From Caloenas nicobarica (taxonomy: Eukaryota), in NCBI RefSeq assembly GCF_036013445.1, contig NC_088282.1, positions 133,631 to 197,630 of the forward strand: a DNA stretch of 64,000 bases, given 5' to 3'. Positions 4,890 to 58,379 of the stretch are shown piece by piece. A model generated the notes under the pieces. It worked only from the letters and a program-made list of their open reading frames with translations, was not told the DNA's origin and did no database searches. Both the position numbers and the translations under genes were made by a program. Position 1 is the first letter of the stretch, and every line of letters starts with the position of its first letter.

Positions 4890-5210
4890 CCCCCCCCGCT
4901 GCGATTGGCTGGAGAGGGTGGGGGGAGCCCAGACCACGCCCCCTCGCTGGGATTGGCTGGAGAGGGTGGGGGAGCTGAGACCACACCCCCTCACTGGGAT
5001 TGGCTGGGGGAAGAGGGGGCGGAGCCGGGGGGGGGGGGGGAGACCACGCCCCCCTCGCTGCCATTGGTTGAGGGTGAAGGGGGTGGAGCCACGCGGGGGG
5101 GGGGCAGACCACGCCCCCTCACTGGGATTGGTTGGGGGTTGGAGGGGGCGGAGTCACAGGGGGACTGGGACACGCCCCCTCGCTGGGATTGGCTGCGGGT
5201 AAAGGGGGCG
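4890..5210. repeat. Tandem repeat of about 62 bp (about 5 copies). Each unit carries gggattggctgg, an inverted CCAAT box.
   Basis: ccacgccccctcgctgggattggctggagagggtgggggagc repeated inside an INO80E intron. Confidence 0.7.
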
Positions 5211-5299: not shown

Positions 5300-5600
5300 G
5301 GTCAGGGGGGCGGGGCCAAGGCGGCAGCCATCTTGGAGCCCCGCCCACCTCCCCGGCGGCCATCTTGGCTGCTGGCAGCGGCCATATTGAAGCCTGGCAG
5401 CCATATTGGAGCCCCGCCCACCTCCCTGGCAGCCATATTGGATGCTGGCGGCGGCCATCTTGAAGCCTGGCGGCCATCTTGGAAGCCTTCCCACGACCCT
5501 GGCGGCCATCTTAGAAGCTGGCGGCGGCCATATTGAAGCCTGGCGGCCATCTTGGAGCCCCGCCCACCACCCCGGCGGCCATCTTGGCCCCGCCCCCCAC
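5300..5600. repeat. Tandem array of about 13 consensus YY1 sites (GGCGGCCATCTTGG and GCCATATTGG variants), unit about 20-24 bp.
   Basis: gcggcagccatcttggagccccgcccacctccccggcggccatcttggctgctggcagcggccatattgaagcctggcagccatattggagcc... It lies in INO80E intron 4. Confidence 0.85.
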
Positions 5601-5699: not shown

Positions 5700-6170
5700 G
5701 CGACCCCCAAGTCCCCCCCCAGCCCCACAAGTGCCTGAAATTGACCCATAATTGCCCCATAACGACTCCCCGGTGCCCCCCAACTTCCCCATGTTGACCC
5801 CTAAGTGCCCCCAAATGACCCATAAATGCCCCAAAGTGACCCATAAATGCCCCACAGCGACCCCCAAGTTCGCCCGCGGCCCCATAACTACCCCACAATG
5901 TCACCCGGCTGCCCCATACTGATCCCTGAACGACCCATAAATGCCCCAAATTGACCTACACCTGCCCCACAGCGACCCCCAAGTTCCCCCCCGCCCCATA
6001 AGTGCCTGAAACTGACCCATAAGTGCCCCATAGAGAGTCCCCAGTGCCCCCCATTGACCGTCAGCCTCCCCACATTGACCCCCAAGTGCCCCCAAATTGA
6101 CCCATAAATGCCCCAAATTGACCCGTAACTGCCCCATAGCGACCCCCAAGTTCCCCCCCAGCCCCATAAG
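5700..6170. repeat. Short tandem repeats of the CCCATAAGTG / CCCATAAATGCCCCAAAGTGAC type.
   Basis: gacccataaatgccccaaagtgacccataaatgccccacagcgacccccaagtt repeated. Confidence 0.6.
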
Positions 6171-7299: not shown

Positions 7300-9180
7300 C
7301 CAAACCACCAATTTCAGCCCCCAAAAGCCCAATTTTGGTCCAAAACCCCCTAAATTTAAGCCCCTAAAGCCCCAATTTTAGACCCAAAAAATCAATTTCA
7401 GCCCCCAAAACCCCAATTTTGGTCTCCAAAAAATCACAATTTTGGCCCCAAAAAATGCCAGTTTGACTCCCAAAAGACCCAATTTCACCCCCAAAAAGCC
7501 CAATTTCATCCCCCAAATGCCCCACTTACCCCAAATTCCTCCAGAACCCCCAAGTTCCCCCAAATTTACCCCAGAATCCCTCAAATTCACCCCAAATTTC
7601 CCCAAATTCCCCCAATTTACTCCAGAACTCCTAAAATTTACCCCAAATCCCTCCAAATTTACCCCGAATTCCCCCAAATTCTTCCAGAACCCCCCTAATT
7701 TACCCCAGAACCCCCCAAATTCCCCCAGAACCACCAAATTTACCCCAAATTCCCCCAAATTTACCTTAAATTCCCCCTAATTTTACCCCAGAACCCCCAA
7801 ATTCCTCCAGAACCCCCAAATTTACCCCAAATTCCCCCAAATTTACCCCAGAATCCCTCAAATTTACCCCAAATTCATCTCAAATTCCCCCTAATTTACC
7901 CCAGAACCCCCCAAATTCCCCCAGAACCACCAAATTTACCCCAAATTCCCCCAAATTTACCTTAAATTCCCCATAATTTTACCCCAGAACCCCCAAATTC
8001 CTCCAGAACCCCCAAATTTACCCCAAATTCCCCCAAATTTACCCCAGAATCCCTCAAATTTACCCCAAATTCATCTCAAATTCCACCTAATTTACCCCAG
8101 AACCCCCCAAATTCCCCCAGAACCACCAAATTTACCCCAAATTCCCCCAAATTTACCTTAAATTCCCCATAATTTTACCCCAGAACCCCCAAATTCCTCC
8201 AGAACCCCCAAATTTACCCCAAATTCCCCCAAATTTACCCCAGAATCCCTCAAATTTACCCCAAATTCATCTCAAATTCCACCTAATTTACCTCAAATTC
8301 CCCCTAATTTACCCCAGAACCCCGCAAATTCCCCCCAAATTCCCCCAAATTTACCCCAGAACTCCCCAATTTCCCCCCAAATTCTCCAAATTTTTCCCCA
8401 AATTCCTCCAGAACTCCCAAATTTCCCCCACAACCCCCAAATTTCCCCCAGAATCCCTGAAATTAACCCCAGATTTCCCCCAAATTCCCCCCGATTTACC
8501 CCAAATATATCTCAAATTCCCCCCAATTTACCCCAGAACCCCCCAAATTCCCTCGACTTCCTCCAGAACCCCTAAATTTACCCCCAAACCTCCAAATTTA
8601 CCTCAAATCCCCCCACGTTCACCTCAAATTCCCCCTAATTTACCCCAGAACCCCCCAAATTCCCCCCAAATTCCCCCAAATTTACCCCAGAACTCCCCAA
8701 ATTCCCCCCGAATTCTCCAAAATTTCCCCCGAATCCCCCCAATTTACCCCCAAGTCCCCCCAATTTACCCCAATTTCCCCCCAATCTACACCAAATCCCC
8801 CTAATTTAGCTCAAATCCCCCCAAATCTCCCCAATTTCCCCCCCAATTTCCCCCCAATCCCCCCAATTTCCCCCCAATCCCCCCAATCTACCCCAAATCC
8901 CCCCAATTTACCCCCAATTTCCCCCAAATTTCCCCCAAATCCCCCCAATTCACCCCCAATTTCCCCCCAATCTACCCCAAATCCCCCTAATTTACCCCCA
9001 AATCCCCCCAATTTCCCCCAAATCCCCCCAATTTCCCCCCAATTTGCCCCCAGTTTCCCCCAAACCCCCCCCAATCCCCCCAATTTCCCCTAATTTACCT
9101 CAAATCCCCCCAATTTCCCCCAAATTTACCTCAAATCCCCCCAATTTCCCCCAATTTCCCCCCATTCCCCCCCCCCCCCA
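7300..9180. repeat. C-rich short-unit satellite (CCCCAAATTTACCCCAGAA, units 10-20 bp) of about 1.9 kb.
   Basis: aatttaccccaaattcccccaaatttaccccagaa repeated. The bottom strand is G-rich. Confidence 0.85.
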
Positions 9181-9264: not shown

Positions 9265-9348
9265 GTAAAGCAGCAGCTTGAGGCGCCGCTTGAGCGCCCG
9301 GTAGCGCCGCTTGTAGCCGCCGCCATCCTGCTCGGCCGCCCCGTTCAT
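9265..9348 (-). CDS. INO80E: INO80E exon 1. Encodes MNGAAEQDGGGYKRRYRALKRRLKLLLY.
   Basis: Matches human INO80E [27 protein letters not shown]. ATG (reverse complement) at 9346-9348, donor tac|gtgagc. An upstream in-frame ATG at 9403-9405 lies inside a CCAAT box and is probably not used. Confidence 0.75.
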
Positions 9349-9720
9349 GGCCGCCGCTTCCGCCTCCTTCCCGGAAGCGCGCACCGCCTCCCCCTCGCTT
9401 CCCATTGGCTGGGCGGCGCCGCTCGCCCCGCCCTCTCGCTCCTCATTGGTGCGCCGCGCTGTCTCTCTCCCTGCCCCGGGTTCGCCCCGCCCTCTCGCTC
9501 CCCATTGGCTGGGCGGCGCCGCTCACCCCGCCCTCTCGCTCCTCATTGGTGCGCCGCGCTGTCTCTCTCCCTGCCCCGGGTTCGCCCCGCCCCCTCGCTC
9601 CCCATTGGCTCGCCCGCCTCCTCACGCCCCATTGACCCCTTGGTTCGCCCCGCCCCCTCCCTTCCCATTGACACAAGCGGTTCGCCCCGCCCTCTCGCTC
9701 CCCATTGGCCGCGGCGGGGG
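9349..9720. promoter_or_regulatory. INO80E: INO80E promoter carrying a tandem array of NF-Y sites.
   Basis: Sits immediately upstream of the INO80E ATG on the minus strand. Units of about 60-120 bp each carry CCATTGGCT or TCATTGGTG (ATTGG is the reverse complement of CCAAT), at least six copies. Confidence 0.55.
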
Positions 9721-19000: not shown

Positions 19001-19200
19001 CCCAATCAGCGCCCTCTCCCTTCCCCTCTCCGCTCTCTGATTGGCCTCACCCCCCTTTAACCCCGCCCACTTTCTGGCACGCCCTCTCCCCTTTCCCTTC
19101 ACGCCCGCCGCACCGCGCATGCGCAACCCTTCCCCGCCCTCCCGCCGGCTTCCACTTCCGGTTTGCCGCCGGCGCCATCTTGGATTCGGGGCGGCGGGAA
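18960..19200 (+). promoter_or_regulatory. TAOK2: TAOK2 CpG-island promoter with CCAAT boxes, NRF1, ETS and YY1 sites.
   Basis: ccaatcc, cccaatcacccaatcagc and ctgattggcc lie at 18970-19046. The NRF1 palindrome gcgcatgcgca is at 19115-19125. ETS cttccacttccgg is at 19149-19161. The YY1 site gccatcttgg is at 19174-19183. This is a TATA-less housekeeping-type promoter. Confidence 0.5.
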
Positions 19201-46699: not shown

Positions 46700-49330
46700 G
46701 GGGGGGGGGGGTTGGGGACATCACGGGGGGGGCGGCGGCGCCGCTGTGGACCTGGGGTCCCCACATCGTGGGCAACGTTGACCTGTTGTCCCCTCCGTTG
46801 ACCTGGGGTCCCCTCCCCATGGTCCATGTTGACCTGGGGTCCCTTCTATTGACCTGGGGTCTCCATTGACCTGGGGTCCCCTTCCCATGGTCCACGTTGA
46901 CCTGGGGTCTCCATTGACCTGGGGTCTCCTTCCCATGGTCTATGTTGACCTGTTGTCCCCTCCATTGACCTGGAGTACCCTCCCCATGGTCCATGTTGAC
47001 CTGGGGTCTCCATTGATCTGTTGTCCCCTCCATTGACCTGTTGTCCCCTCCATTGACCTGGGGTCCCCTCCCCATGGTCCATGTTGACCTGGGGTCTATA
47101 TTGACCTGGGGTCTCCGTTGACCTGGGGTCCCCTTCCCATGGTCTACGTTGACCTGTCGTCCCCTCAGTTGACCTGGGGTCCCCTCCCCATGGTCTATGT
47201 TGACCTGGGGTCTCCATTGACCTGGGGTCCCCTTCCCATGGTCTCGTTGACCTGTTGTCCCCTCTGTTGACCTGGGGTCCGCTCCCCGTGGTCCATGTTG
47301 ACCTGGGGTCTCCATTGATCTGTTGTCCCCTCCATTGACCTGTTGTCCCCTCCATTGACCTGGGGTCCCCTTCCCATGGTCTACGTTGACCTGTTGTCCC
47401 CTCCGTTGACCTGGGGTCCCCTCCCCATGGTCTATGTTGACCTGGGGTCTCCATTGACCTGTTGTCCCCTCCATTGACCTGGGGTCCCCTCCCCATGGTC
47501 CATGTTGACCTGGGGTCCCTTCTATTGACCTGGGGTCTCCATTGACCTGGGGTCCCCTTCCCATGGTCCACGTTGACCTGGGGTCTCCATTGACCTGGGG
47601 TCTCCATTGACCTGGGGTCTCCTTCCCATGGTCTATGTTGACCTGTTGTCCCCTCCGTTGACCTGGGGTCCCCTCCCCATGGTCCATGTTGACCTGGGGT
47701 CTCCATTGACCTGTTGTCCCCTCCATTGACCTGGAGTCCCCTTCCCATGGTCTACGTTGACCTGTTGTCCCCTCTGCTGACCTGGGGTCCCCTCCCCATG
47801 GTCCATGTCGACCTGGGGTCCCCTCCATTGACCTGGGGTCTCCTCCCCGTGGTCCATGTTGACCTGGGGTCTCCATTGACCTGTTGTCCCCTCCATTGAC
47901 CTGGGGTCCCCTTCCCATGGTCCATGTTGACCTGGGGTCTCCATTGACCTGGGGTCTCCATTGACCTGGGGTCCCCTTCCCATGGTCTACGTTGACCTGT
48001 TGTCCCCTCCGTTGACCTGGGGTCCCCTCCCCATGGTCCATGTTGACCTGGGGTCCCTTCTATTGACCTGGGGTCTCCATTGACCTGGGGTCCCCTTCCC
48101 ATGGTCTACGTTGACCTGGGGTCCCTTCTATTGACCTGGGGTCTCCATTGACCTGGGGTCCCCTTCCCATGGTCTATGTTGACCTGTTGTCCCCTCCATT
48201 GACCTGGGGTCCGCTCCCCGTGGTCCATGTTGACCTGGGGTCTCCATTGACCTGTTGTCCCCTCCATTGACCTGGGGTCCCCTTCCCATGGTCCATGTTG
48301 ACCTGGGGTCTCCATTGACCTGGGGTCCCCTTCCCATGGTCTCGTTGACCTGTTGTCCCCTCCATTGACCTGGGGTCCCCTCCCCATGGTCCATGTTGAC
48401 CTGGGGTCTCCATTGACCTGGGGTCCCCTCCTCATGGTCCACAGTGACCTGGTGTCCCCCCATCATTGTCTACGTTCACCTGGGGTCCCCCCACCTCGTC
48501 CCCATGCCCAGTGTTGACCCATTGACCCCCCATGGCCAACGTTGACTTCGTGACCCCTCCCCATGGCCAATCTTGACTTGGTGTCCCCTCCCCATGCCCC
48601 CCATTGACCCCTTGACCCCCCATGGCCAACGTTGACCCCTTGACCCCCCATTGACCCATTGACCCTTCCCCATGCCCCCCATTGACCCCTTGCCCCCCAT
48701 GGCCAATGTTGACCCATTGACCCCTCCCCATGCCCCCCATTGACCCCCCATGGCCAATATTGACTTGGTGTCCCCTCCCCACATCCCCCATTGACCCATT
48801 GACCCCCCATGGCCAACGTTGACTTCATGACCCCTCCCCAAGCCCCACATTGACCCCCCATGGCCAACGTTGCCCCATTGACCCCCCATGGCCAACGTTG
48901 ACCCATTGACCCCCCATGGCCAACGTTGCCCCATTGACCCCCCATGGCCAACGTTGCCCCATTGACCCCCCATGGCCAACGTTGACTTCATGACCCCTCC
49001 CCACGCCCCCCATGCCAATATTGACTTGGTGTCCCCTCCCCATTGACCCATTGACCCCCCATGGCCAACGTTGACTTCATGACCCCTCCCCAAGCCCCAC
49101 ATTGACCCATTGACCCCCCATGGCCAACGTTGCCCCATTGACCCCCCATGGCCAACGTTGACTTCATGACCCCTCCCCAAGCCCCACATTGACCCATTGA
49201 CCCCCCATGGCCAACGTTGACTTCATGACCCCTCCCCAAGCCCCACATTGACCCCCCATGGCCAACGTTGCCCCATTGACCCCCCCATGGCCAACGCTGA
49301 CTTCATGACCCTTCCCCACGCCCCCCATTG
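46700..49330. repeat. Two adjacent satellites. A unit of about 60 bp, GACCTGGGGTCTCCATTGACCTGGGGTCCCCTTCCCATGGTC, runs 46700-48450. CCCCATGGCCAACGTTGACCCATTGA units run 48450-49330.
   Basis: Direct tandem arrays fill the last MFAP4 intron. Confidence 0.85.
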
Positions 49331-49399
49331 ACCCATTGCCCCCCACGCCCCAACGTTGCCCCACGGACCCCTCCGTGGGGCGCCCCCCCGCGCTCTCAC

Positions 49400-49582
49400 C
49401 GGCGCCCCCGTCCACGAAGCCCCCCACGTGCAGGGTGTATCCGTCCTCCTCGGCGCTGACCGCGTGGGGCGAGAGCGCGAAGCTGCCGTAGGTGGCGGCC
49501 GCCGTGTTGTTCTCGAAGTCCTCGAGCTCCACGCGCAGCTCGTAGCGGCCCTGCAGCGTCAGCAGGTGCAGCGTCTGCAGCC
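49400..49582 (-). CDS. MFAP4: MFAP4 exon. Encodes (G)LQTLHLLTLQGRYELRVELEDFENNTAAATYGSFALSPHAVSAEEDGYTLHVGGFVDGGA(G).
   Basis: Matches human LQNMHLLTLKQKYELRVDLEDFENNTAYAKYADFSISPNAVSAEEDGYTLFVAGFEDGGAG. Acceptor ccccccag, donor gccg|gtgaga on the minus strand. Confidence 0.9.
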
Positions 49583-49599
49583 CTGGGGGGCACAGCGGG

Positions 49600-50250
49600 G
49601 CGGATGTGGGGCGGGGTGTGGGGCAAATGGGGCGGGATGTGGGGCAGGACGTGGGGCACGGTGGGGTGGGATTTCGGGCAGGATCTGGGCACGATGCGGG
49701 GCAGATAGGGTAGGATGGGGGGCGGGATGTGGGGTGGGGTTTGGGGCACAGTGGGGTGGGATGTGGGGCACAATGTGGGGTGGGATGTGGGGCAAGCGGG
49801 GCAGGATGTGGGGCGGGGTGTGGGGCAGAAATGGGGCACAGTGGGGCACAAATGGGGCGCAGTGGGGCGGGATGTGGGGTACAAAGTGGGGTGCGGTGGG
49901 GTGGGATTTCAGGCAGGATCTGGGGCAACGTGTGGGTGGGATGTGGGGTAGATGTGGGGCAGGATGTGGGGCAGGATTTGGGGTACCACATGGGTGGGAT
50001 GTGGGGCATAATGTGGGGTGGGATTTGGGGCAAATGGGGCGGGATGTGGGGCAGGATTTGGGGTCTACGACGGGGCGCAGTGGGGCAGGCGCTGGGGCAT
50101 GGAGGGGGGGATGTGGGGCAGGATCTATGGGGCAGCTTATGGGGCAGAACCGAGGAGACAAAACCCCCCGAAGCAACAGGAGCTGCTGCAAACCCAGGAC
50201 TGGGGAGGGGAGTGGGAGCAACTGGGGGCTACTGGGGCGTAACTGGGGGC
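49600..50250. repeat. GGGGCAGGATGTGGGGCGGGGTGTGGGGCA-type G-rich repeats.
   Basis: A direct tandem array in an MFAP4 intron. Confidence 0.75.
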
Positions 50251-50290
50251 TACTGGTTTATACTGGGAGGGCCCGTTGCTCGTTGCTCAC

Positions 50291-50387
50291 CCAGCCAGTA
50301 CTCGCCGTCGGCGCGCCCGAAGCCCTGCTTGTAATCGTTCCAGCCCCGGAAAAAACTGACGGATCCGTTAAATCGCTTCTGAAAAAC
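50291..50387 (-). CDS. MFAP4: MFAP4 exon. Encodes [32 protein letters not shown](G).
   Basis: Identical to human [33 protein letters not shown] apart from one residue. Acceptor aaattcag, donor ctgg|gtgagc on the minus strand. Confidence 0.9.
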
Positions 50388-50399
50388 CTGAATTTGTGG

Positions 50400-51060
50400 G
50401 GAAGGGGTTGGGGGGATCCCTCCCCGAACTCCTGGGTCCCTCCCCGAACTCCTGGGTCCCTCCTCGAACTCCTGGGTCCCACCCGGATGCCTGGGTCCCT
50501 CCTCGAACTCCTGGGTCCCTCCCCGAACGCCTGGGTCCCACCCGGATGCCTGGGTCCCTCCTCGAACTCCTGGGTCCCTCCCCGCACTCCTGGGTCCCTC
50601 CCGGATGCCTGGGTCCCCCCTAAAACTCCCGGATTCCCCCCTGAAATTAGTGGGTCTCCCAGGGAGACCAGGTCTATCCCGGACCCACCCGGGGCCACCA
50701 GGTCTACTCAGGATCCCCAGGGCCACCAGGTCTACCCTGCACTCAGCCCTCCTGGGTCCCTCCAGCACTCCTGTGTTCTTCCCCGCATTCCTGGGTCCCT
50801 CCGCCCTACTGGGTCCCTCCCGCACTCCTGGGTCCCCCCGCAAACTCCCGGGTCCCCCCTGAACGCTTAGATCCCACAGGGAGACCAGGTCTACCCAGGA
50901 CCCGCCCAGAGCCACTAGGTCTACCCAGGACCCTCCCAGAGCCACCAGGTCTACCCAGGATCCCCAGGGCCACCAGGTCTATCCCGCACTCTGGTCCCTC
51001 CCGCACTCCTGGGTCCCCCCGCACTCCTGGGTCCCCCCCCGCACTCCTGGGTCCCCGGTA
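50400..51060. repeat. 20-bp minisatellite of the CGAACTCCTGGGTCCCTCCC / GGACGCCTGGGTCCC family.
   Basis: The same family as 6240-7135 and 24400-25060. Confidence 0.85.
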
Positions 51061-51061
51061 C

Positions 51062-51222
51062 CGTCCAGACGTGTCCCAGGGTGCTCATGTCGCAGAACAC
51101 GGGCAGCGGGGCCGCCCCCGCGCCCCCCGGGTACACCAGGTAGACGCCGTCGCCGCGTCCCCCCCCCGCGTGGATGTCGTGACAGTCGCGGGGGGGCGGG
51201 GGGACCTCGCAGGGGGGAGGGG
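51062..51222 (-). CDS. MFAP4: MFAP4 exon. Encodes ...PPCEVPPPPRDCHDIHAGGGRGDGVYLVYPGGAGAAPLPVFCDMSTLGHVWT.
   Basis: Matches human MFAP4 PLDCDDIYAQGYQSDGVYLIYPSGPSVPVPVFCDMTTEGGKWT. It contains an RGD. Acceptor tgtccccag, donor acg|gtaccg on the minus strand. Confidence 0.75.
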
Positions 51223-51239
51223 CTGGGGACAGGGACAGG

Positions 51240-52100
51240 GGGAGGGGGGACTTGGGGGGGTTGTCCCCAGTGTCCCCGTCCCATTGTCCCCATTGTCCCA
51301 TTATCCCCTTATCCCATTATCCCATTATCCCATTGTCCCCATTGTCCCATTCTCCCATTATCCCCATTATCCCATTGTCCCCATTATCCCATTGTCCCCA
51401 TTGTCCCCTTATCCCATTATCCCCATTATCCCATTGTCGCCATTATCCCCATTATCCCATTATCCCATTGTCCCATTGTCCCATTGTCCCCATCATCCCG
51501 TTATCCCCATTATCCCATTGTCCCCATTATCCCATTGTCCCCGTTGTCCCCTTATCCCATTATCTCATTATCTCATTATCCCATTGTCCCATTGTCCCAT
51601 TATCCCATTATCTCATTATCCCATTCTCCCATTATCCCCATTATCCCATTATCCCCATTACCCCATCGTCCCCATTGTCCCATTGTCCCCATTTTCCCAT
51701 TTTCCCGTTATCCCCATTGTCCCCATTGTCCCATTGTCCCCATTACCCCATTATCTCATTATCTATCTCGTTATCCCATTATCCCATTGTCCCATTATCC
51801 CATTATCTCATTATCCCATTATCCCCATTGTCCCCATTATCCCATTGTCCCATTGTCCCCATTTTCCCATTTTCCCGTTATCCCCATTACCCCATTATCC
51901 CATTATCTCATTATCCCGTTATCCCATTATCCCATTGTCCCATTATCCCATTATCTCACTATCCCATTATCCCCATTATCCCATTGTCCCCCCGTCCGTG
52001 TGTCCGTGTGTCCGTGTGTCCGTGTGTCCGTGTGTCCGTGTGTCCGTGTCCGTGTGTCCGTGTGTCCGTGTGTCCGTGTGTCCGTGTGTCCGTGTCCGTG
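51240..52100. repeat. 9-bp CCCATTATC/CCCATTGTC satellite, then a (CCGTGTGT)n microsatellite.
   Basis: The first part is the same family as 26700-27950. (tccgtgtg)n runs 51985-52100. Confidence 0.85.
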
Positions 52101-53340: not shown

Positions 53341-53639
53341 GTCCCTATGGGATCCCCGGGCCCCCGCGTCCGTCCGTCCGTCCGGCCGCCCTACCTCCGT
53401 CCGTCCGTCCATGGCGCCGCCGCCGCCGCCCCCCGCCCCTCCCCCACCCCGGGGGGGCCCCGCCGAGGGGGGAGGGGGCGCCCGGACGCCTGGGTCCCTT
53501 CCCGGACGCCTGGGTCCCTTCCCGGACGCCTGGGTTCCCCCGGCGGCGGGAGGCCCCGATGGGGGAAACGGCCTCGAAACGAGGGCTCTACGGGCAATTT
53601 GGGGGGGTTTGGGGGAAAAACGCCCGAAATTTGGGGTTC

Positions 53640-54360
53640 TATAGGGGAAACGCCCCGAATTTGGGGTTTTTAGAGTAAATTATGTTTGTTTTATACATTT
53701 TAGTGCTTATATGTCGTGTTTTTAAGGCTTAATCGGGGGATTTTGTGAGGAAAAGAGCCCGAAATCGGCGTTTCTATAGGGGAAACGCCCTGAATTTTGG
53801 GGTTTTTAGAGTAAATTATGTTTATTTTAAACATTTTAGTGCTTATATATTGTGTTTTTAAGGCTTAATCGGGAATTTTATAGGGAAAAGAGCCCGAAAT
53901 CGGCGTTTCTATAGGGGAAACGCCCTGAATTTGGGGTTTTTAGAGCAGATTATAGTTATTTTATAAATTTTATCCCTTATATATTGTGGTTTTAAGGCTT
54001 AATCGGGGGATTTTGTGAGGAAAAGAGCCCGAAATCGGCGTTTCTATAGGGGAAACGCCCTGAATTTGGGGTTTTTAGACCAGATTGTAGTTATTTTATA
54101 TATTTTAGTGATTATATATTGTGTTTTTAAAGCTTAATCAGGGGATTTTGTGAGGAAAAGAGCCCGAAATCGGCGTTTCTATAGGGGAAACGCCTTAAAT
54201 TTGGGGTTTTTAGAGCGGATTATATTTGTTTTATATATTTTAGTGATTATATATTGTGTTTTTAAGGCTTAATCGGGGGATTTTATAGGGAAAAGAGCCC
54301 GAAATCGGCGTTTCTATAGGGGAAACGCCTTAAATTTGGGGGTTTCTATAGGGAGAAGTT
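53640..54360. repeat. AT-rich tandem repeat of about 125 bp, about 6 copies.
   Basis: ggggtttttagagtaaattatgtttgttttatacattttagtgcttatatgtcgtgtttttaaggcttaatcgggggattttgtgaggaaaagagcccgaaatcggcgtttctataggggaaacgccc repeated. Confidence 0.85.
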
Positions 54361-54699
54361 GCTGCAATCTGTATTTTTATAGGGGTTTATCCGAATTATT
54401 TCTCCTAATTTAGGCTAAAACCCCCTAATTTCGCCGCTTTCTGGGAAATACCCCTTTAAATCTACTGTACCTCTGGGTAATACACCCTGGGAAGCGCTTA
54501 TATTTAACCGATATACCTTAAATTTGGGGTTTCTATAGGGGAGACGCCCTGAACTGTGGTGCCTGCGCGGGGTTGTGGCCACAACTTCGCTCCCTACGGC
54601 GAATATACCTTTAAATTTGCCTGGCTATAGGTCCAGGCCTTACCTCCGCCCCCTATTTATACGTAGTTTTAAAAATATGAAGTTTTATAGTCTTTTATA

Positions 54700-55060
54700 T
54701 ATATATATATATATAGGGACGCCAGGCCGCCTCACAAGATGGCGGCCCCGCGCGGGGCACGCTGGGAGTTGTAGTCCCGTCCCCCATTAACCCCAATGCG
54801 CCCCGGCCCTCGGCGGACTACAACTCCCAGCGTCCCCCGCGCGGGGCAACGGCGGCCGCCGCCACAAGATGGCGGGGGAGGCCGCGGTGCACGCTGGGAG
54901 TTGTAGTCCGCGCGTCCATTAAAACACACGGGGAGGGCGGGGCCGGAGGACTACACTTCCCGGCGTGCCCCGCGGGGGCGCATGCGCGCTGACTTCCGGC
55001 TCTCGGCGGGACCGGAAGAGAAAGGCGGAGAGAGGGAGTTGGGGGGGGTGCGCGCGTGGC
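54700..55060 (+). promoter_or_regulatory. SRRM2: SRRM2 CpG-island promoter with a duplicated YY1 plus ZNF143-SBS module, an NRF1 site and ETS sites.
   Basis: The YY1 site cacaagatggcgg occurs at 54733-54745 and 54863-54875. A ZNF143-type ACTACAAxTCCCAGCG motif occurs four times: 54761-54777 (reverse complement), 54817-54832, 54892-54909 (reverse complement) and 54951-54966. NRF1 gcgcatgcgcgc is at 54979-54990. ETS/GABP gacttccggc and accggaag are at 54991-55018. The module of about 130 bp is duplicated. Confidence 0.55.
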
Positions 55061-55160
55061 GTCGCCCTCTCGCGTCTCCGGGGGTTTTCTTTTATCTTTT
55101 TTTAATCTTTTTGAGGGAAAAAAGAGGCGAAAACTCCTCAAATCGGCGGCGGAGGAGCCG
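55000..55160 (+). other. SRRM2: Putative SRRM2 non-coding exon 1. The transcription start is uncertain.
   Basis: The donor gagccg|gtgagg lies at 55161, downstream of the promoter module. The next exon's acceptor, ccccccgcag at 58078-58080, is 15 nt before the ATG. Confidence 0.3.
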
Positions 55161-55169
55161 GTGAGGACC

Positions 55170-58060
55170 CCGGGGGGGGTTTTGGGTTTTTTTGGGGTTT
55201 TTTTTGGGGGGTTTTTGGGGATAGTTGGGCGTTGAGGCCCGCGCGGTGCGGGGAAAATGGCGGGTTGGGGGGAAAAAGGGCTAAAAAAGGGGTTTTTTTG
55301 GGGAAAAATGGGGTTTTATGAGGAAAAAAGGGGGGGTTATGAGGGAAAAATGGGGGTTTTGTGAGGAAAAGTGGGGGTTTCGTGGGGAAAAATGGGGGGT
55401 TGGGGGTGGGGGGAGGGGAATGGGGGGAAAAAGTGGCTTTTTTGGGGTTTTTTTTGAGGGGAAAAAGGGGGTTTTGGGGGTTTTGTGAGGGGGAAAGGGG
55501 GGGGGAGGGGGAAATGGGGTTTGGGGGAGTTTTGGGGTGAAAAAGTGGGATTTTGGGGGAGATTTGGGGAGAAAATGGGATTTTGGGGGAGATTTGGGGA
55601 GAAAATGGGATTTTGGGGCGAATTTTGAGGGAAAAAGTGGGTTTTGGGGGGAGATTTGAGGGAAAAAAGTGGGTTTTGGGGGGAGAAGGAAAGTTTTTTA
55701 AAGAGGATTTTTGAAGCAAAAAGGGTCTTTTCGTGGGAGGTTTTGAGGAAAAAAAGTGGGTTTTGGGGAAAAATATGAAGGTTTTGGGAGGAAAAAGAGG
55801 TTTTTTGGGGGTGATGAGGGAAAAAGGGCAATTTTGGGGAGTTTTGAGGGAAAAAAGTGGAGTTTTGGGAGGGGAAAAGTGGGAAGTTTTGAGGGAAAAG
55901 CGAATTTTGGGGGGAAAAAAGTGGTTTTGGGGTTTATGAAGGAAAATGTGGGGAGTTGTGAGGAAAAAAGTGGAATTTGGGGGTGAGTTTGAGGGGTAAA
56001 AGTGGCGTTTTGGGGCAGTTCTAAGGAGAAAAAAATGGGGGTTTTGGGAAAAATCGAAGTTTTTGGGGAAAGAAAATCAGGTTTGGGGGAAAAAAAAGAT
56101 GATTTTGGGGGAATTTTGAGGGGAAAAAGTGGTTTTTTGGGGGGTAATGAAGCGGAAAGGGGGTTTTGGGGCACTTTTTGAGGAGAAAAAGCCGTTTTTT
56201 GGGGTTGGAAGAGGCTGGGGGGGGGTGGGGGTGGGCGGGAAAAGGGGCAGTTTGGGGGGAAAAGAGGGAAAATTGGGCAAAATGGGGGAGGGGGGTGGGT
56301 TTGGGGGGAAATGGGGGAAAATTGGGAGGGAAATTGGGGGGAATTGGGAGGGAAATGGGGGAAATTGGGGTGCAAAGGGGGGGAAATTTGGGGGAAATGG
56401 GAGGAAATGGTGGGAATTTGGGGGGGAAATGGGGAAAATTTGGGGGGAAAATGGGGGAAATTGGGGCAAAATGGGGGAAATTGGGATGCAAAGGGGGAAA
56501 TTGGGAGGAAATGGGGAAAATTTGGGGGGAAAATGGGAAATTGGGGTGCAAATGGGGAAATTTGGGGGGGAAATGGGGGAAATTTGGGGGGGAAATGGGG
56601 GAAATTGGGGCAAAATGGGGGAAATTGGGATGCAAAGGGGGGGAAATTGGGAGGGGAAATTGGGAGGAAATGGGGGAAAATTGGGTGCAAATGGAAAATG
56701 GGGGAAATTGGGAGGGAAATGGGGGAAATTGGGGTGCAAAGTGGGGGAAATTTGGGGGAAATGGGAGGAAATGGTGGGAATTTGGGGCAAAATGGGGGAA
56801 ATTGGGAGGCAAAGGGGGGGAAATTGGGGCAAAATGGGGAAAATTTGGGGGGAAATGGGAGAAATTGGGGGGGAAATGGGGGTGCAAGGGGGTGGGAAAG
56901 GGGGAAATGGGGGCACAGGGTGGGCAGAAAAGGGGGGACATGGGGGTGGGACAAGGGGGTGCGGGGCGGGCTGGGGTGTAATAACGGAGGGTTTGGGGGG
57001 CGGGGAATGGGGAGAAATGGGGTGGGAGAAATTGGGGTGCAGGGAGGGGGGGAAAGGGGGAAAATGGGGCTGCAGGGAATGGGGAAAAGGGGGCGCGGGG
57101 GGTGGGAAATTGGGGTGCAGGGGATGGGAGAGGGGGAAAATGGGGGTGCGGGGCGGAGAGAAACTGGGGTGCAGAGGCAGAGAAAAGGGGGTGTGGGGGG
57201 AGAAAAGGGGGACATGGGGGTGCAGGGAAGGGCTGGGGGTGTAATAACGGGGGGTTTGGGGGGTGGGCAAAGGGGTTTTGGGGGGCAGGGGGTTTTGGGG
57301 GGCGGGCAGAGGGGTTTTGGGGGGCCGGGAGGTTTTGGGGGGCAGGCAAAGGGGTTTTGGGGGGCAGGCAAAGGGGTTTTGGGGGGCAGGCAAAGGGGTT
57401 TTGGGGGCCGGGGGATTTTGGGTGGTGGGGGTTTTGGGGGGCAGGCAAAGGGGTTTTGGGGGACTGGGGGTTTTGGGGGGCTGAGGGTTTTGAGGGGCAG
57501 GCAAACGGGTTTTGGGGGGCAGGAGGTTTTGGGGGGCAGGCAAAGGGGGTTTTGGGGGTGGGGGGTTTTGGGTGGTGGGGGTTTTGGGGGCCGGGCAAAG
57601 GGGTTTTGGGGGGCTGAGGGTTTTGAGGGGCAGGCAAAGGGGTTTTGGGGGACTGGGGGTTTTGGGGGGCTGAGGGTTTTGGGGGCAGGAGGTTTTGGGG
57701 GGCAGGCAAAGGGGGTTTTGGGGGTGGGGGGGTTTGGGTGGTGGGGGTTTTGGGGGGCAGGCAAAGGGGTTTTGGGGGGCAGGGGGTTTTGGGGGGCAGG
57801 CAGAGGGGGTTTTGGGGGGGGTTTGGGTGGTGGGGGTTTTGGGGGGCAGGCAAAGAGGGTTTTGGGGGGCAGGCAAAGAGGGTTTTGGGGGGCAGGCAAA
57901 GAGGGTTTTGGGGGGCAGGCAAAGGGGTTTTGGGGGCAGGCAAAGGGGTTTTGGGGGGCAGGGGTTTTGGGGGGCAGGCAAAGGGGTTTTGGGGGGCCGG
58001 GAGGTTTTGGGGGCAGGCAAAGGGGTTTTGGGGGACGAGGGTTCTGGGGGGCGGGGGGTG
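55170..58060. repeat. G-rich satellites of about 2.9 kb filling SRRM2 intron 1. GGGGTTTTGGGG-type, GGGAAATTGGGG-type and 30-bp GGGGCAGGCAAAGGGGTTTTGG units.
   Basis: Direct tandem arrays of G4-prone T4G4-like motifs. Confidence 0.85.
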
Positions 58061-58095
58061 GCTGACGCGTCCCCCCGCAGGGGGCTTTTGGGGCC

Positions 58096-58373
58096 ATGTA
58101 CAATGGGATCGGGCTGGCGACGCCGCGGGGCAGCGGCACCAACGGCTACGTCCAGCGCAACCTCTCGGCCCTGCGGGGCAAACGGGAACCCAGAACCGGC
58201 AGCACCGGGACCGGCAGCACCGGAGACCCCCCCGGGGGGGAGCAGGAGGAGCCGCGCAGGCTGGAGGCCGGGGGGCTGCTCCGCAAACCCAACCCCGACA
58301 TCCTCGACCACCAGCGCAAGAGGAAGGTGGAGCTGAAATGCCTGGAGCTGGCCGAGCTCATGGAGGAACAGGG
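58096..58373 (+). CDS. SRRM2: SRRM2 first coding exon. Encodes [35 protein letters not shown]...LLRKPNPDILDHQRKRKVELKCLELAELMEEQ(G).
   Basis: Matches human SRRM2 [28 protein letters not shown]...RPNPDILDHERKRRVELRCLELEEMMEEQG. ATG at 58096-58098, donor cagg|ggtgagc (GT at 58374). Confidence 0.85.
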
Positions 58374-58379
58374 GTGAGC

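What the first reader, a model, noticed from the sequence alone, without database searches (positions are those of the whole stretch)
54700..55060. SRRM2 promoter built from a duplicated ZNF143-SBS plus YY1 module with NRF1 and GABP sites
Two copies of a module of about 130 bp each contain a YY1 site (cacaagatggcgg) and two ACTACAAxTCCCAGCG motifs. Those motifs are the extended ZNF143 / Staf binding site. The copies are followed by an NRF1 palindrome gcgcatgcgcgc and the ETS sites cttccgg and ccggaag. This is a textbook but unusually dense housekeeping promoter, and the ZNF143 motif appears four times within 200 bp.
Basis: partly seen in the sequence, partly recalled or inferred. Interest (0 to 1): 0.5.

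Follow-up and report, generated by a model that had tools for sequence, protein, structure and literature searches.

The report
Conserved duplicated SRRM2 housekeeping promoter
This is the ordinary CpG-rich promoter of the splicing-speckle gene SRRM2 in a pigeon; its only unusual feature is a tandemly duplicated block of YY1 and ZNF143/THAP11 binding motifs that birds, and in part a snake and a bat, have kept in the same order and spacing.

Summary
The window is the SRRM2 locus of the Nicobar pigeon (Caloenas nicobarica). Window 54733-55018 holds two ~130-bp modules. Each module has a forward YY1 site followed by two ACTACA-type Staf/ZNF143 sites. Downstream of the modules lie an NRF1 palindrome and two ETS sites.

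The four ZNF143-type sites are the only ones in 64 kb (0.04 expected by chance). Each fits the 25-nt ACTACA+SBS consensus at all but one position.

A spliced bird cDNA starts about 20 nt downstream of the second ETS site and ends its first exon at the donor at 55160. The motif block therefore lies about 20 to 300 nt upstream of the supported transcript start. The SRRM2 ATG is 3 kb downstream, in exon 2.

The same motif order and spacing occur in Columba, Colius and Sturnus. Motif positions are 80-92% conserved and spacers 41-64%. A snake and a bat keep the pattern in degraded form.

No covariation supports a selected hairpin. A sub-threshold Rfam mir-1805 hit is not an orthologue.

Factor occupancy is inferred, not shown. 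The finding is an ordinary housekeeping promoter, notable only for being dense and deeply conserved.

The parts
54696..54715 (.). (TA)10 microsatellite marking the upstream edge of the GC-rich promoter. It is pigeon-specific and absent in Colius and Sturnus.
54733..54747 (+). YY1 site a (CACAAGATGGCGGCC)
   Evidence: 93-100% identical in Columba, Colius and Sturnus.
54751..54777 (-). SBS1: ACTACA-type Staf/ZNF143-THAP11 site (GGACTACAACTCCCAGCGTGCCCCGCG) in reverse orientation. It starts 15 nt after the start of the YY1a core.
54778..54814 (.). Poorly conserved spacer 1 between the two ACTACA ends. Its length is conserved but its sequence is not.
54815..54841 (+). SBS2: ACTACA-type SBS in forward orientation (GGACTACAACTCCCAGCGTCCCCCGCG)
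54863..54877 (+). YY1 site b (CACAAGATGGCGGGG)
54883..54909 (-). SBS3: ACTACA-type SBS in reverse orientation
54934..54944 (+). GC box (AGGGCGGGGCC, Sp1-like) inside spacer 2. Also present in Columba and, as GGGGCGGAGC, in Sturnus.
   Evidence: Read from the sequence; no separate statistics were run.
54948..54974 (+). SBS4: ACTACA-type SBS in forward orientation (GGACTACACTTCCCGGCGTGCCCCGCG). Its first 14 nt, ACTACACTTCCCGG, are identical in the bat.
54978..54989 (.). NRF1 palindrome GCGCATGCGCGC. Conserved in Colius and Sturnus; replaced by GCGCTTCCGCGC in Columba.
54993..54999 (-). ETS/GABP core (CCGGAAG on the - strand)
   Evidence: Conserved in Columba.
55012..55018 (+). ETS/GABP core CCGGAAG. 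Colius and Sturnus carry CGGAAGTG at the equivalent place.
55039..55160 (+). Non-coding SRRM2 exon 1. The 5' limit is the end of the homologous cDNA, so it is a minimum. The exon contains the conserved block GCGTGGCGTCGC at 55054. The splice donor GT is at 55161-62.
55161..58080 (+). Intron 1, made almost wholly of G-rich tandem repeats
58081..58375 (+). SRRM2 exon 2, with the ATG at 58096 and the start of the cwf21 domain

Best explanation
Window 54716-55160 is the TATA-less CpG-island promoter and non-coding first exon of SRRM2 in the Nicobar pigeon.

Proposed mechanism (inferred from sequence and literature). Two tandem units each carry a YY1 site followed by a back-to-back pair of ACTACA-type Staf binding sites. 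These sites recruit YY1 and ZNF143 together with THAP11. Just downstream, an NRF1 site and an ETS/GABP pair sit next to the start site. In human cells YY1, ZNF143/THAP11 and GABP are the three motif classes found under HCFC1 peaks at active CpG-island promoters. The array would therefore act as a multi-site platform for HCFC1 and its chromatin-modifying partners, keeping the promoter open and driving strong, constitutive transcription that starts about 20 nt or less downstream of the second ETS site.

Shown here: motif presence, non-random clustering, gene identity, exon 1 position, and conservation of motifs, order and spacing.

Inferred: which proteins bind and what they do.

The duplication is old. 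It is shared by four bird genera in three orders, and the -,+,-,+ site pattern is also seen in a snake. The long inverted repeats are a by-product of placing two copies of a 25-nt motif in opposite orientation.
For: Gene and exon structure:
- SRRM2 N-terminus at 58096; the spliced query is 100% identical to Caloenas nicobarica SRRM2.
- The bird cDNA contig L007 begins at the position homologous to window ~55039, and its exon 1 ends at the 55160 donor.

Motifs:
- Four ACTACANNTCCC sites, the only ones in 64 kb (0.04 expected).
- Each matches the ACTACA+STAF composite with one mismatch (0.01 expected at 3 or fewer mismatches). The consensus is from PMC5006282.
- YY1, NRF1 and ETS sites are present.
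- The region is a CpG island: GC 0.73 and CpG o/e 1.03 over 54716-55080, against 0.41 and 0.85 just upstream.

Conservation:
- The order YY1>, <SBS, SBS>, YY1>, <SBS, SBS> recurs in Columba, Colius and Sturnus, followed by NRF1 in Colius and Sturnus.
- Motif columns are 80-92% identical and spacers 41-64% (Fisher p 6e-8 to 6e-11).
- Spacing inside the unit is conserved. YY1 to SBS is 14-17 nt and ACTACA to ACTACA is 41-44 nt in all 8 bird pairs. The linker between units varies from 17 to 32 nt.
- The snake has two -/+ pairs, with a YY1-like site before the second pair. The bat has a YY1-like site plus three SBS, one of which (ACTACACTTCCCGG) is identical to pigeon SBS4.

Literature:
- HCFC1-bound promoters carry ZNF143/THAP11, GABP and YY1 motifs (PMC3668359).
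- The M4/ACTACA motif peaks at about -89 from the TSS (PMC5006282). SBS4 lies 81-121 nt upstream of the conserved exon-1 block in the four birds.
Against: - No binding, chromatin or TSS-mapping data exist for this species.
- The cDNA comes from another, unidentified bird, and the 5' end of an RNA-seq contig gives only a minimum upstream extent.
- From my own knowledge (Xi et al. 2007, not verified in the library), YY1 motifs of this form are usually enriched just downstream of TSSs. Here they sit about 170 and 300 nt upstream of the supported start, which could mean additional upstream starts.
- The ETS 7-mer alone is no more frequent than chance.
- The NRF1 site is not conserved in Columba.
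- JASPAR matrices could not be run.
- No paper in the searchable library links SRRM2 to ZNF143 or THAP11.
- Srrm2 was not found in the held supplement text of the ZFP143 degron study. That text may not contain the target lists.
Confidence: 0.8

Rival explanations
1. Each module is its own core promoter. Transcription would also start just upstream of each YY1 site, placing YY1 at about +10 to +25, with the preceding forward SBS about 25-50 nt upstream. The region would then be an array of two or three tandem start-site clusters feeding the same exon-1 donor, possibly allowing TSS switching.
For: - Both YY1 sites are in the sense orientation.
- SBS2 ends 25 nt before YY1b in both pigeons.
- From my own knowledge, YY1 motifs of this form are enriched just downstream of TSSs.
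- ZNF143's own promoter uses multiple SBS to switch TSS (PMC3936768).
Against: - The only transcript evidence (L007) starts downstream of the whole array.
- The SBS2-to-YY1b linker is the least constrained spacing, ranging from 17 to 32 nt.
- No upstream exon sequence is seen in the cDNA.
Confidence: 0.12
2. The block is a bidirectional promoter. The reverse-oriented SBS (SBS1 and SBS3) would drive an upstream antisense transcript, either a non-coding RNA or the neighbouring minus-strand fibrinogen-domain gene.
For: - SBS are enriched in bidirectional promoters, and a single SBS is sufficient for bidirectional activity (PMC3082894).
- A Fibrinogen_C gene lies upstream on the minus strand in this window (about 49.1-51.3 kb), in Colius and in Sturnus.
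- The Sturnus gene model starts inside the promoter block.
Against: - The nearest recognisable fibrinogen-domain exon is about 3.4 kb away. The interval is filled with a 135-bp tandem repeat and other repeats.
- The 5' parts of the Colius and Sturnus gene models translate to low-complexity or stop-containing sequence and look like prediction artefacts.
- No antisense transcript was available.
Confidence: 0.15
3. The inverted repeats are selected as hairpins. Each module would form a cruciform or a promoter-proximal RNA stem-loop, such as a TSS-associated or mir-1805-like small-RNA precursor, rather than serving only as protein binding sites.
For: - Module 1 folds far better than shuffles (RNA z = -7.9, DNA z = -7.65).
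- There are sub-threshold Rfam hits to mir-1805 (39.2 bits, E 3.9e-6) and to mir-5408. The consensus arms of both families are themselves ACTACA/GGGAGTTGTAGT-like.
Against: - The scores are well below the gathering thresholds (39 vs 64 bits; 31.5 vs 90 bits).
- The mature gga-miR-1805-3p sequence (PMC9876980) is absent, even allowing 5 or fewer substitutions, from the window and from all orthologous loci.
- Across 8 modules there is no covariation beyond column composition: 78.6% of cells paired against 77.0% in shuffles, with 85 of 500 shuffles as high.
- Hairpin stability decays to background in Colius M1 (z -0.9) and Sturnus M2 (z -0.3) although the motifs persist there.
- On the cDNA evidence the hairpins lie upstream of the transcript start.
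Confidence: 0.05
4. The duplication is a recent, neutral tandem repeat or a fragment of a dispersed element in this genome, with no regulatory meaning.
For: The region is surrounded by tandem repeats: a 135-bp array at 53614-54345, (TA)10, and G-rich arrays in the intron.
Against: - Both modules occur at the orthologous position in Columba, Colius and Sturnus, with module-specific signatures.
- There are no other copies in the 64-kb window.
- Motifs are conserved much more strongly than spacers.
Confidence: 0.02

Closest known systems
HCFC1-type active CpG-island promoters carrying ZNF143/THAP11, GABP and YY1 motifs (Michaud et al. 2013, PMC3668359)
   Same: All three HCFC1-associated motif classes are present within 290 bp of a CpG-island promoter, just upstream of the transcript start. 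The gene is a broadly needed nuclear-speckle and splicing factor.
   Different: Each class is present in multiple copies (4 SBS, 2 YY1, 2 ETS) in a fixed, duplicated arrangement. Occupancy has not been measured, and the organism is a bird.
ACTACA-extended Staf binding site (M4 motif, 'SBS2', RRACTACAN+SBS) bound by THAP11/HCF-1 with ZNF143 (PMC5006282, PMC3082894)
   Same: All four sites carry GGACTACA(A/C) followed by an 18-nt SBS that matches YWCCCRNMATSCMYYRCR at 17 of 18 positions. The 3' half, TGCCCCGCG, is identical to that of the Xenopus tRNA-Sec SBS quoted in PMC5006282.
   Different: Consensus position 9 (A) is G in all four sites. The sites come as back-to-back inverted pairs with 41-44 nt between the ACTACA ends. 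I did not find this arrangement described in the papers I read.
BUB1B promoter and bidirectional promoters with two functional SBS (Anno et al. 2011, PMC3082894)
   Same: There is more than one ACTACA-SBS in a short promoter fragment, and the SBS can act in either orientation.
   Different: There are four sites rather than two, they are combined with abutting YY1 sites, and no divergent partner gene has been demonstrated.
Rfam mir-1805 (RF03779) and mir-5408 (RF04264) precursor families
   Same: They share hairpin geometry and arm sequences (GGAGUUGUAGUC ... ACUACAnCUCC), and the mir-1805 model has a 37-nt loop like module 1.
   Different: The scores are far below the gathering thresholds, the mature miR-1805 sequence is absent, base pairing is not conserved across birds, and the element lies upstream of the SRRM2 transcript start.

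Membership tests
SRRM2 gene (promoter assignment) | The downstream coding exons encode the SRRM2 N-terminal cwf21 domain on the same strand. | tested here: met
   MYNGIG... starts at 58096 on the + strand. The spliced exons are 100% identical to Caloenas nicobarica SRRM2 and carry PF08312.
SRRM2 gene (promoter assignment) | Transcript evidence shows that exon 1 and the start site adjoin the motif block. | tested here: met
   The spliced cDNA contig L007 from another bird aligns over nt 3-43 to window 55041-85, and its exon 1 ends at the 55160 donor. This is indirect evidence; there is no CAGE for this species.
Staf/ZNF143 binding site (SBS) | An 18-nt consensus YWCCCRNMATSCMYYRCR, with CCCR at positions 3-6 and C at position 12. 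| tested here: met
   All four sites match at 17 of 18 positions, with CCCR and C12 intact. The consensus comes from PMC5006282 and PMC3082894.
M4 / ACTACA-SBS (THAP11-HCFC1-ZNF143 composite) | ACTAYRNNNCCCR, with RRACTACAN placed immediately 5' of the SBS. | tested here: met
   GGACTACAA or GGACTACAC precedes the SBS in all four sites.
M4 / ACTACA-SBS (THAP11-HCFC1-ZNF143 composite) | A promoter-proximal location, with a published peak near -89 from the TSS. | tested here: met
   SBS4 starts about 89 nt upstream of the position homologous to the cDNA 5' end (54950 vs ~55039). The other three sites lie at about -130 to -290.
M4 / ACTACA-SBS (THAP11-HCFC1-ZNF143 composite) | In vivo occupancy by ZNF143, THAP11 and HCFC1. 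| not testable with these tools
   No ChIP data were accessible. No paper in the library links SRRM2 to these factors.
YY1 site | Core consensus AAGATGGCGGC (GCCATnTT on the other strand). | tested here: met
   There is an exact match at 54736 and a one-mismatch match at 54866. Both are conserved in three other birds.
YY1 site | The typical position just downstream of the TSS in sense orientation (own knowledge, Xi et al. 2007). | tested here: inconclusive
   The orientation is sense, but the sites lie about 170 and 300 nt upstream of the only supported start. Upstream minor starts cannot be excluded.
NRF1 site | The palindrome GCGCATGCGC. | tested here: met
   It is at 54978-87, one of two in the window (0.00 expected). 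It is conserved in Colius and Sturnus but lost in Columba.
GABP/ETS site pair | Two CCGGAAG cores close together near the TSS. | tested here: met
   The cores are at 54993-99 (-) and 55012-18 (+), and both are conserved in Columba. The 7-mer alone is not above chance in the window, so support comes from position and conservation.
CpG-island promoter | GC above 0.5 and CpG observed/expected above 0.6 over at least 200 bp. | tested here: met
   Window 54716-55080 has GC 0.73 and CpG o/e 1.03.
Bidirectional promoter | A second gene's TSS on the opposite strand within 1 kb. | tested here: inconclusive
   The nearest minus-strand coding exon (Fibrinogen_C) is about 3.4 kb away. The neighbour gene models in Colius and Sturnus have unreliable 5' ends.
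mir-1805 microRNA precursor (RF03779) | A score at or above the Rfam gathering threshold of 64 bits. | tested here: not met
   The score is 39.2 bits.
mir-1805 microRNA precursor (RF03779) | Presence of the mature miR-1805-3p sequence. | tested here: not met
   TGTATTGGAACACTACAGCTCC has no match with 5 or fewer substitutions in the window or in loci L001-L007.

The most novel reading that the evidence does not exclude
The unit [YY1 site, 15 nt to a reverse ACTACA-SBS, about 42 nt (four helical turns) to a forward ACTACA-SBS] may be a fixed-geometry composite element. It would be kept in two tandem copies at SRRM2 since before the bird-squamate split, and possibly before the bird-mammal split. 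Its function would be to assemble a stereospecific multi-protein complex, for example two ZNF143-THAP11-HCFC1 units bridged with YY1, rather than to act as a loose cluster of independent sites.

The snake pairs, at 50 and 53 nt (about five turns), would fit helical phasing.

A more speculative extension is that such inverted SBS pairs give rise to promoter hairpins that have been annotated as microRNAs, such as mir-1805 and mir-5408.
Probability: 0.15. Interest if true: 0.5.

Novelty: new member of a known kind. Interest (0 to 1): 0.3.

Why it matters
SRRM2 is a core scaffold of nuclear speckles and needs high, constitutive expression. This locus gives a clean, phylogenetically footprinted example of how that expression may be hard-wired: through multiple copies of the three motif classes linked to HCFC1 at active CpG-island promoters.

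The practical value is modest. The finding supplies precise, conserved sites for reporter mutagenesis. It also supplies a natural test case for whether the orientation and spacing of ACTACA-type ZNF143/THAP11 sites matter. It does not reveal a new kind of element.

Tried and rejected
1. JASPAR matrix scanning was not possible offline. Literature IUPAC consensus patterns with shuffle controls were used in its place.

2. Human, chicken, turtle and fish orthologues could not be retrieved. Look-ups for Fukomys, Miniopterus, Lycodopsis and the window's own protein returned nothing. The turtle gene range was too long. The frog locus is an odd assembly with no motifs. The deep-conservation claim therefore rests on one snake and one bat.

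3. The hairpin/miRNA idea was rejected. The Rfam hits are sub-threshold, the mature miR-1805 is absent, there is no covariation, and hairpin stability is not conserved.

4. A metagenome-wide scan for the composite of YY1 plus reverse SBS (AAGATGGCGG N16-22 GGGANNNGTAGT) gave 28 hits. All look like chance matches in unrelated, mostly coding-like DNA, and none has a paired downstream SBS.

5. I tried to define the 5' end of the upstream fibrinogen-domain gene from the Colius and Sturnus gene models. This gave only low-complexity translations and tblastn noise.

6. The pigeon (TA)10 as a TATA box for an upstream start was rejected as a conserved feature, because it is absent in Colius and Sturnus.

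7. Literature searches for SRRM2 with ZNF143 or THAP11, and for miR-5408, found nothing relevant. Srrm2 was not found in the held supplements of the ZFP143 degron paper.

8. I first misread the '83%' as pairwise identity. It is the mean majority fraction per column; true pairwise identity of the two modules is about 66-69%.

Full report
**What is in the sequence**

Window 54716-55080 is a sharp GC-rich island (GC 0.73, CpG o/e 1.03). It starts right after a (TA)10 microsatellite and an AT-rich, repeat-filled stretch.

- CACAAGATGGCGG occurs at 54733 and 54863.
- ACTACANNTCCC occurs four times: 54764-75 (-), 54817-28 (+), 54896-907 (-) and 54950-61 (+). These are the only four in the 64-kb window, against 0.04 expected.
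- GCGCATGCGC is at 54978-87.
- CCGGAAG is at 54993-99 (-) and 55012-18 (+).

I tested the four ZNF143-type sites against the full composite given in the literature. That composite is ACTACA, one free base, then the 18-nt STAF consensus YWCCCRNMATSCMYYRCR (PMC5006282). Each of the four sites has a single mismatch. Nothing else in the window comes within three mismatches (0.01 expected).

The two modules are spaced 130-133 nt apart. Overall they are about 66-69% identical, and the identity sits in the motifs.

Each module is therefore also a long inverted repeat: 33 nt at 97% complementarity in module 1 and 28 nt at 86% in module 2.

**Which gene, and where transcription starts**

The SRRM2 N-terminus ([23 protein letters not shown]...) is encoded from 58096 on the + strand. 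It sits in an exon whose acceptor is at 58079-80. Further cwf21-domain exons follow.

A 177-aa spliced query built from these exons is 100% identical to 'serine/arginine repetitive matrix protein 2 [Caloenas nicobarica]'. The window is therefore Nicobar pigeon, or something indistinguishable from it.

The ATG lies in exon 2, so the promoter must sit upstream of a non-coding exon 1. A 924-nt Logan contig (L007, run SRR21676487) is a spliced SRRM2 cDNA from another bird. Its nt 3-43 align to window 55041-85, including the block GCGTGGCGTCGC that all four birds share. Its first exon ends ...GAGCCG, exactly at the window's 55160|GTGAGG donor, which Columba also has.

The supported start is therefore at or a little upstream of about 55039, roughly 20 nt past the second ETS site. 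That places:
- NRF1 at about -55;
- SBS4 at about -89, matching the published positional peak of the M4 motif (PMC5006282);
- the rest of the array out to about -300.

Intron 1 (55161-58080) consists almost wholly of G-rich tandem repeats.

**Conservation**

I retrieved orthologous loci through exact-protein look-ups:
- Columba livia (L001), Colius striatus (L002) and Sturnus vulgaris (L003);
- the pit viper Protobothrops (L004);
- the bat Cnephaeus nilssonii (L005).

All three other birds carry the same series in the same orientation: YY1>, <SBS, SBS>, YY1>, <SBS, SBS>. NRF1 follows in Colius and Sturnus. An ETS site follows in all three.

In the four-bird alignment, motif columns are 80-92% identical to Caloenas and the spacers 41-64% (Fisher p 6e-8 to 6e-11).

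Spacing inside the unit is tighter than spacing between units:
- YY1 start to the reverse SBS: 14-17 nt.
- ACTACA end to ACTACA end: 41-44 nt in all eight bird pairs, although the intervening sequence is not conserved.
- Linker from one unit to the next: 17-32 nt.

Within Columbidae, module 1 pairs with module 1 and module 2 with module 2 (0.83 identity each, against 0.59-0.69 across modules). The duplication therefore predates that split. By parsimony it also predates the divergence of the three Neoaves orders sampled.

The snake has two -/+ pairs (7707-7808 and 8163-8261) at 3-6 mismatches to the composite. A YY1-like AAATGGCGGCC lies before the second pair.

The bat has a YY1-like site, a forward SBS with the module-1 signature (ACCACAACTCCCAG), and a -/+ pair. 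The forward member of that pair begins ACTACACTTCCCGG, identical to pigeon SBS4.

This suggests the arrangement is older than birds, but it rests on one species each. Human, chicken, turtle and fish loci could not be fetched.

**How it most likely works**

In HeLa cells, the DNA under HCFC1 peaks at about 5400 active CpG-island promoters yields three motifs: ZNF143/THAP11, GABP and YY1. About 90% of those promoters are bound by at least one of the four factors (PMC3668359). The ACTACA part engages THAP11/HCF-1 and the adjoining 18-mer engages ZNF143 (PMC5006282, PMC3082894).

The SRRM2 promoter here carries all three classes in multiple copies, plus NRF1 and a GC box. The best-supported reading is a redundant recruitment platform for HCFC1 and its chromatin-modifying partners, which keeps a highly expressed housekeeping gene constitutively on. 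This step is inference from sequence and literature. No occupancy data were available, and I found no paper that links SRRM2 to these factors.

Published counts give 1175 SBS in 938 promoters (PMC3082894), about 1.25 per SBS-containing promoter. I could not test that genome-wide.

**Rivals**

(a) Hairpin or microRNA.
- For: module 1 folds far better than shuffles (z about -7.7 to -7.9). An E-value-thresholded Rfam scan gives sub-threshold hits to mir-1805 (39.2 bits against a 64-bit threshold) and mir-5408. The consensus arms of both families are themselves ACTACA/GGGAGTTGTAGT-like.
- Against: the mature gga-miR-1805-3p sequence (PMC9876980) is absent. Base pairing across eight modules is no better than column shuffles, 78.6% against 77.0%, with 85 of 500 shuffles as high. 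Hairpin stability falls to background in Colius M1 and Sturnus M2 while the motifs persist.
- Conclusion: the inverted repeat is best explained as two opposed copies of a long protein-binding motif.

(b) Bidirectional promoter.
- For: SBS favour bidirectional activity (PMC3082894). A fibrinogen-domain gene lies upstream on the minus strand in three birds.
- Against: its nearest credible exon is about 3.4 kb away, and the neighbour gene models' 5' ends look artefactual.
- Conclusion: open. This rival is not exclusive of the main reading.

(c) Tandem core promoters with YY1 just downstream of extra start sites.
- Conclusion: possible, but unsupported by the one cDNA.

(d) A neutral recent repeat.
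- Conclusion: contradicted by the cross-species data.

**Verdict**

- the species is identified;
- the sites are the composite ACTACA-SBS type;
- the sites within each module are in inverted orientation;
- the exon 1 and TSS position are defined;
- the duplication is old and its internal spacing is conserved.

This is a well-preserved example of a known promoter class, not a new kind of element.

Noticed in passing
window 5300-5600: A dense tandem array of about 11 YY1-type motifs (GCGGCCATCTTGG / GCAGCCATATTGG; AAGATGGCCGC on the - strand) is interleaved with CCCCGCCCAC boxes. The arrangement resembles clustered YY1-site arrays. The associated gene was not identified.
   Followed up: partly
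window 19100-19185: A second housekeeping-type promoter cluster: NRF1 palindrome GCGCATGCGC (19115), tandem ETS CTTCCACTTCCGG (19150-61) and a YY1-like GGCGCCATCTTGG (19171-81). All are oriented for a minus-strand gene. A weaker YY1-like plus ETS pair lies at 9319-9377.
   Followed up: partly
window 53614-54345: A 135-bp AT-rich tandem repeat (5.4 copies, 90% matches) lies directly upstream of the promoter. Related 'GGTTTCTATAGGGG' units continue to about 54545.
   Followed up: no
window 55166-58080: SRRM2 intron 1 is almost wholly G-rich tandem repeats (GGGGTTTT, GGGGGAAAT and 22-39-nt GGGGTTTTGGGGGGCAGGCAAA units), with GC skew of +0.78 to +0.87 on the coding strand. This gives strong G-quadruplex potential right after exon 1.
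   Followed up: no
window 54754-54837 and 54815-54909: The Rfam families mir-1805 and mir-5408 give sub-threshold hits because their own consensus arms look like inverted ACTACA-SBS motifs. The mir-5408 consensus is GGACUACAACUCCCAUAAUGC.... This raises the possibility that those annotated microRNA hairpins derive from inverted ZNF143/THAP11 site pairs.
   Followed up: partly
window ~49100-51300 (- strand); L002:1-1220; L003:1-5277: A fibrinogen C-terminal-domain gene lies head-to-head upstream of SRRM2, with synteny conserved in Colius and Sturnus. The 5' ends of the public gene models look unreliable.
   Followed up: partly
L001:6140-6152 (Columba livia): The NRF1 palindrome seen in Caloenas, Colius and Sturnus is replaced in Columba by GCGCTTCCGCGC, which contains an ETS-like CTTCCG core. 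This is an apparent site turnover within Columbidae.
   Followed up: no
window 54785-54791 and 54916-54922; L001:~6086-6092; L003:~5092-5098; L005:~7327-7334; L004:~7739-7747: A short A/T-rich patch recurs in the otherwise unconserved spacers, starting about 8-20 nt beyond the ACTACA end of the reverse SBS: CCATTAA in both Caloenas spacers, CGTTAAG in Columba M2, CGTTATG in Sturnus M1, CGTAATTG in the bat and CTATAAAAG in the snake. It is unexplained and may be chance.
   Followed up: no
L006:7600-10001 (Mantella aurantiaca): The MYNGIG-encoding start of SRRM2 appears 12 times within about 2.4 kb in this frog contig. This is either an assembly artefact or a tandem amplification of the first coding exon. 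No promoter motifs were found upstream.
   Followed up: no
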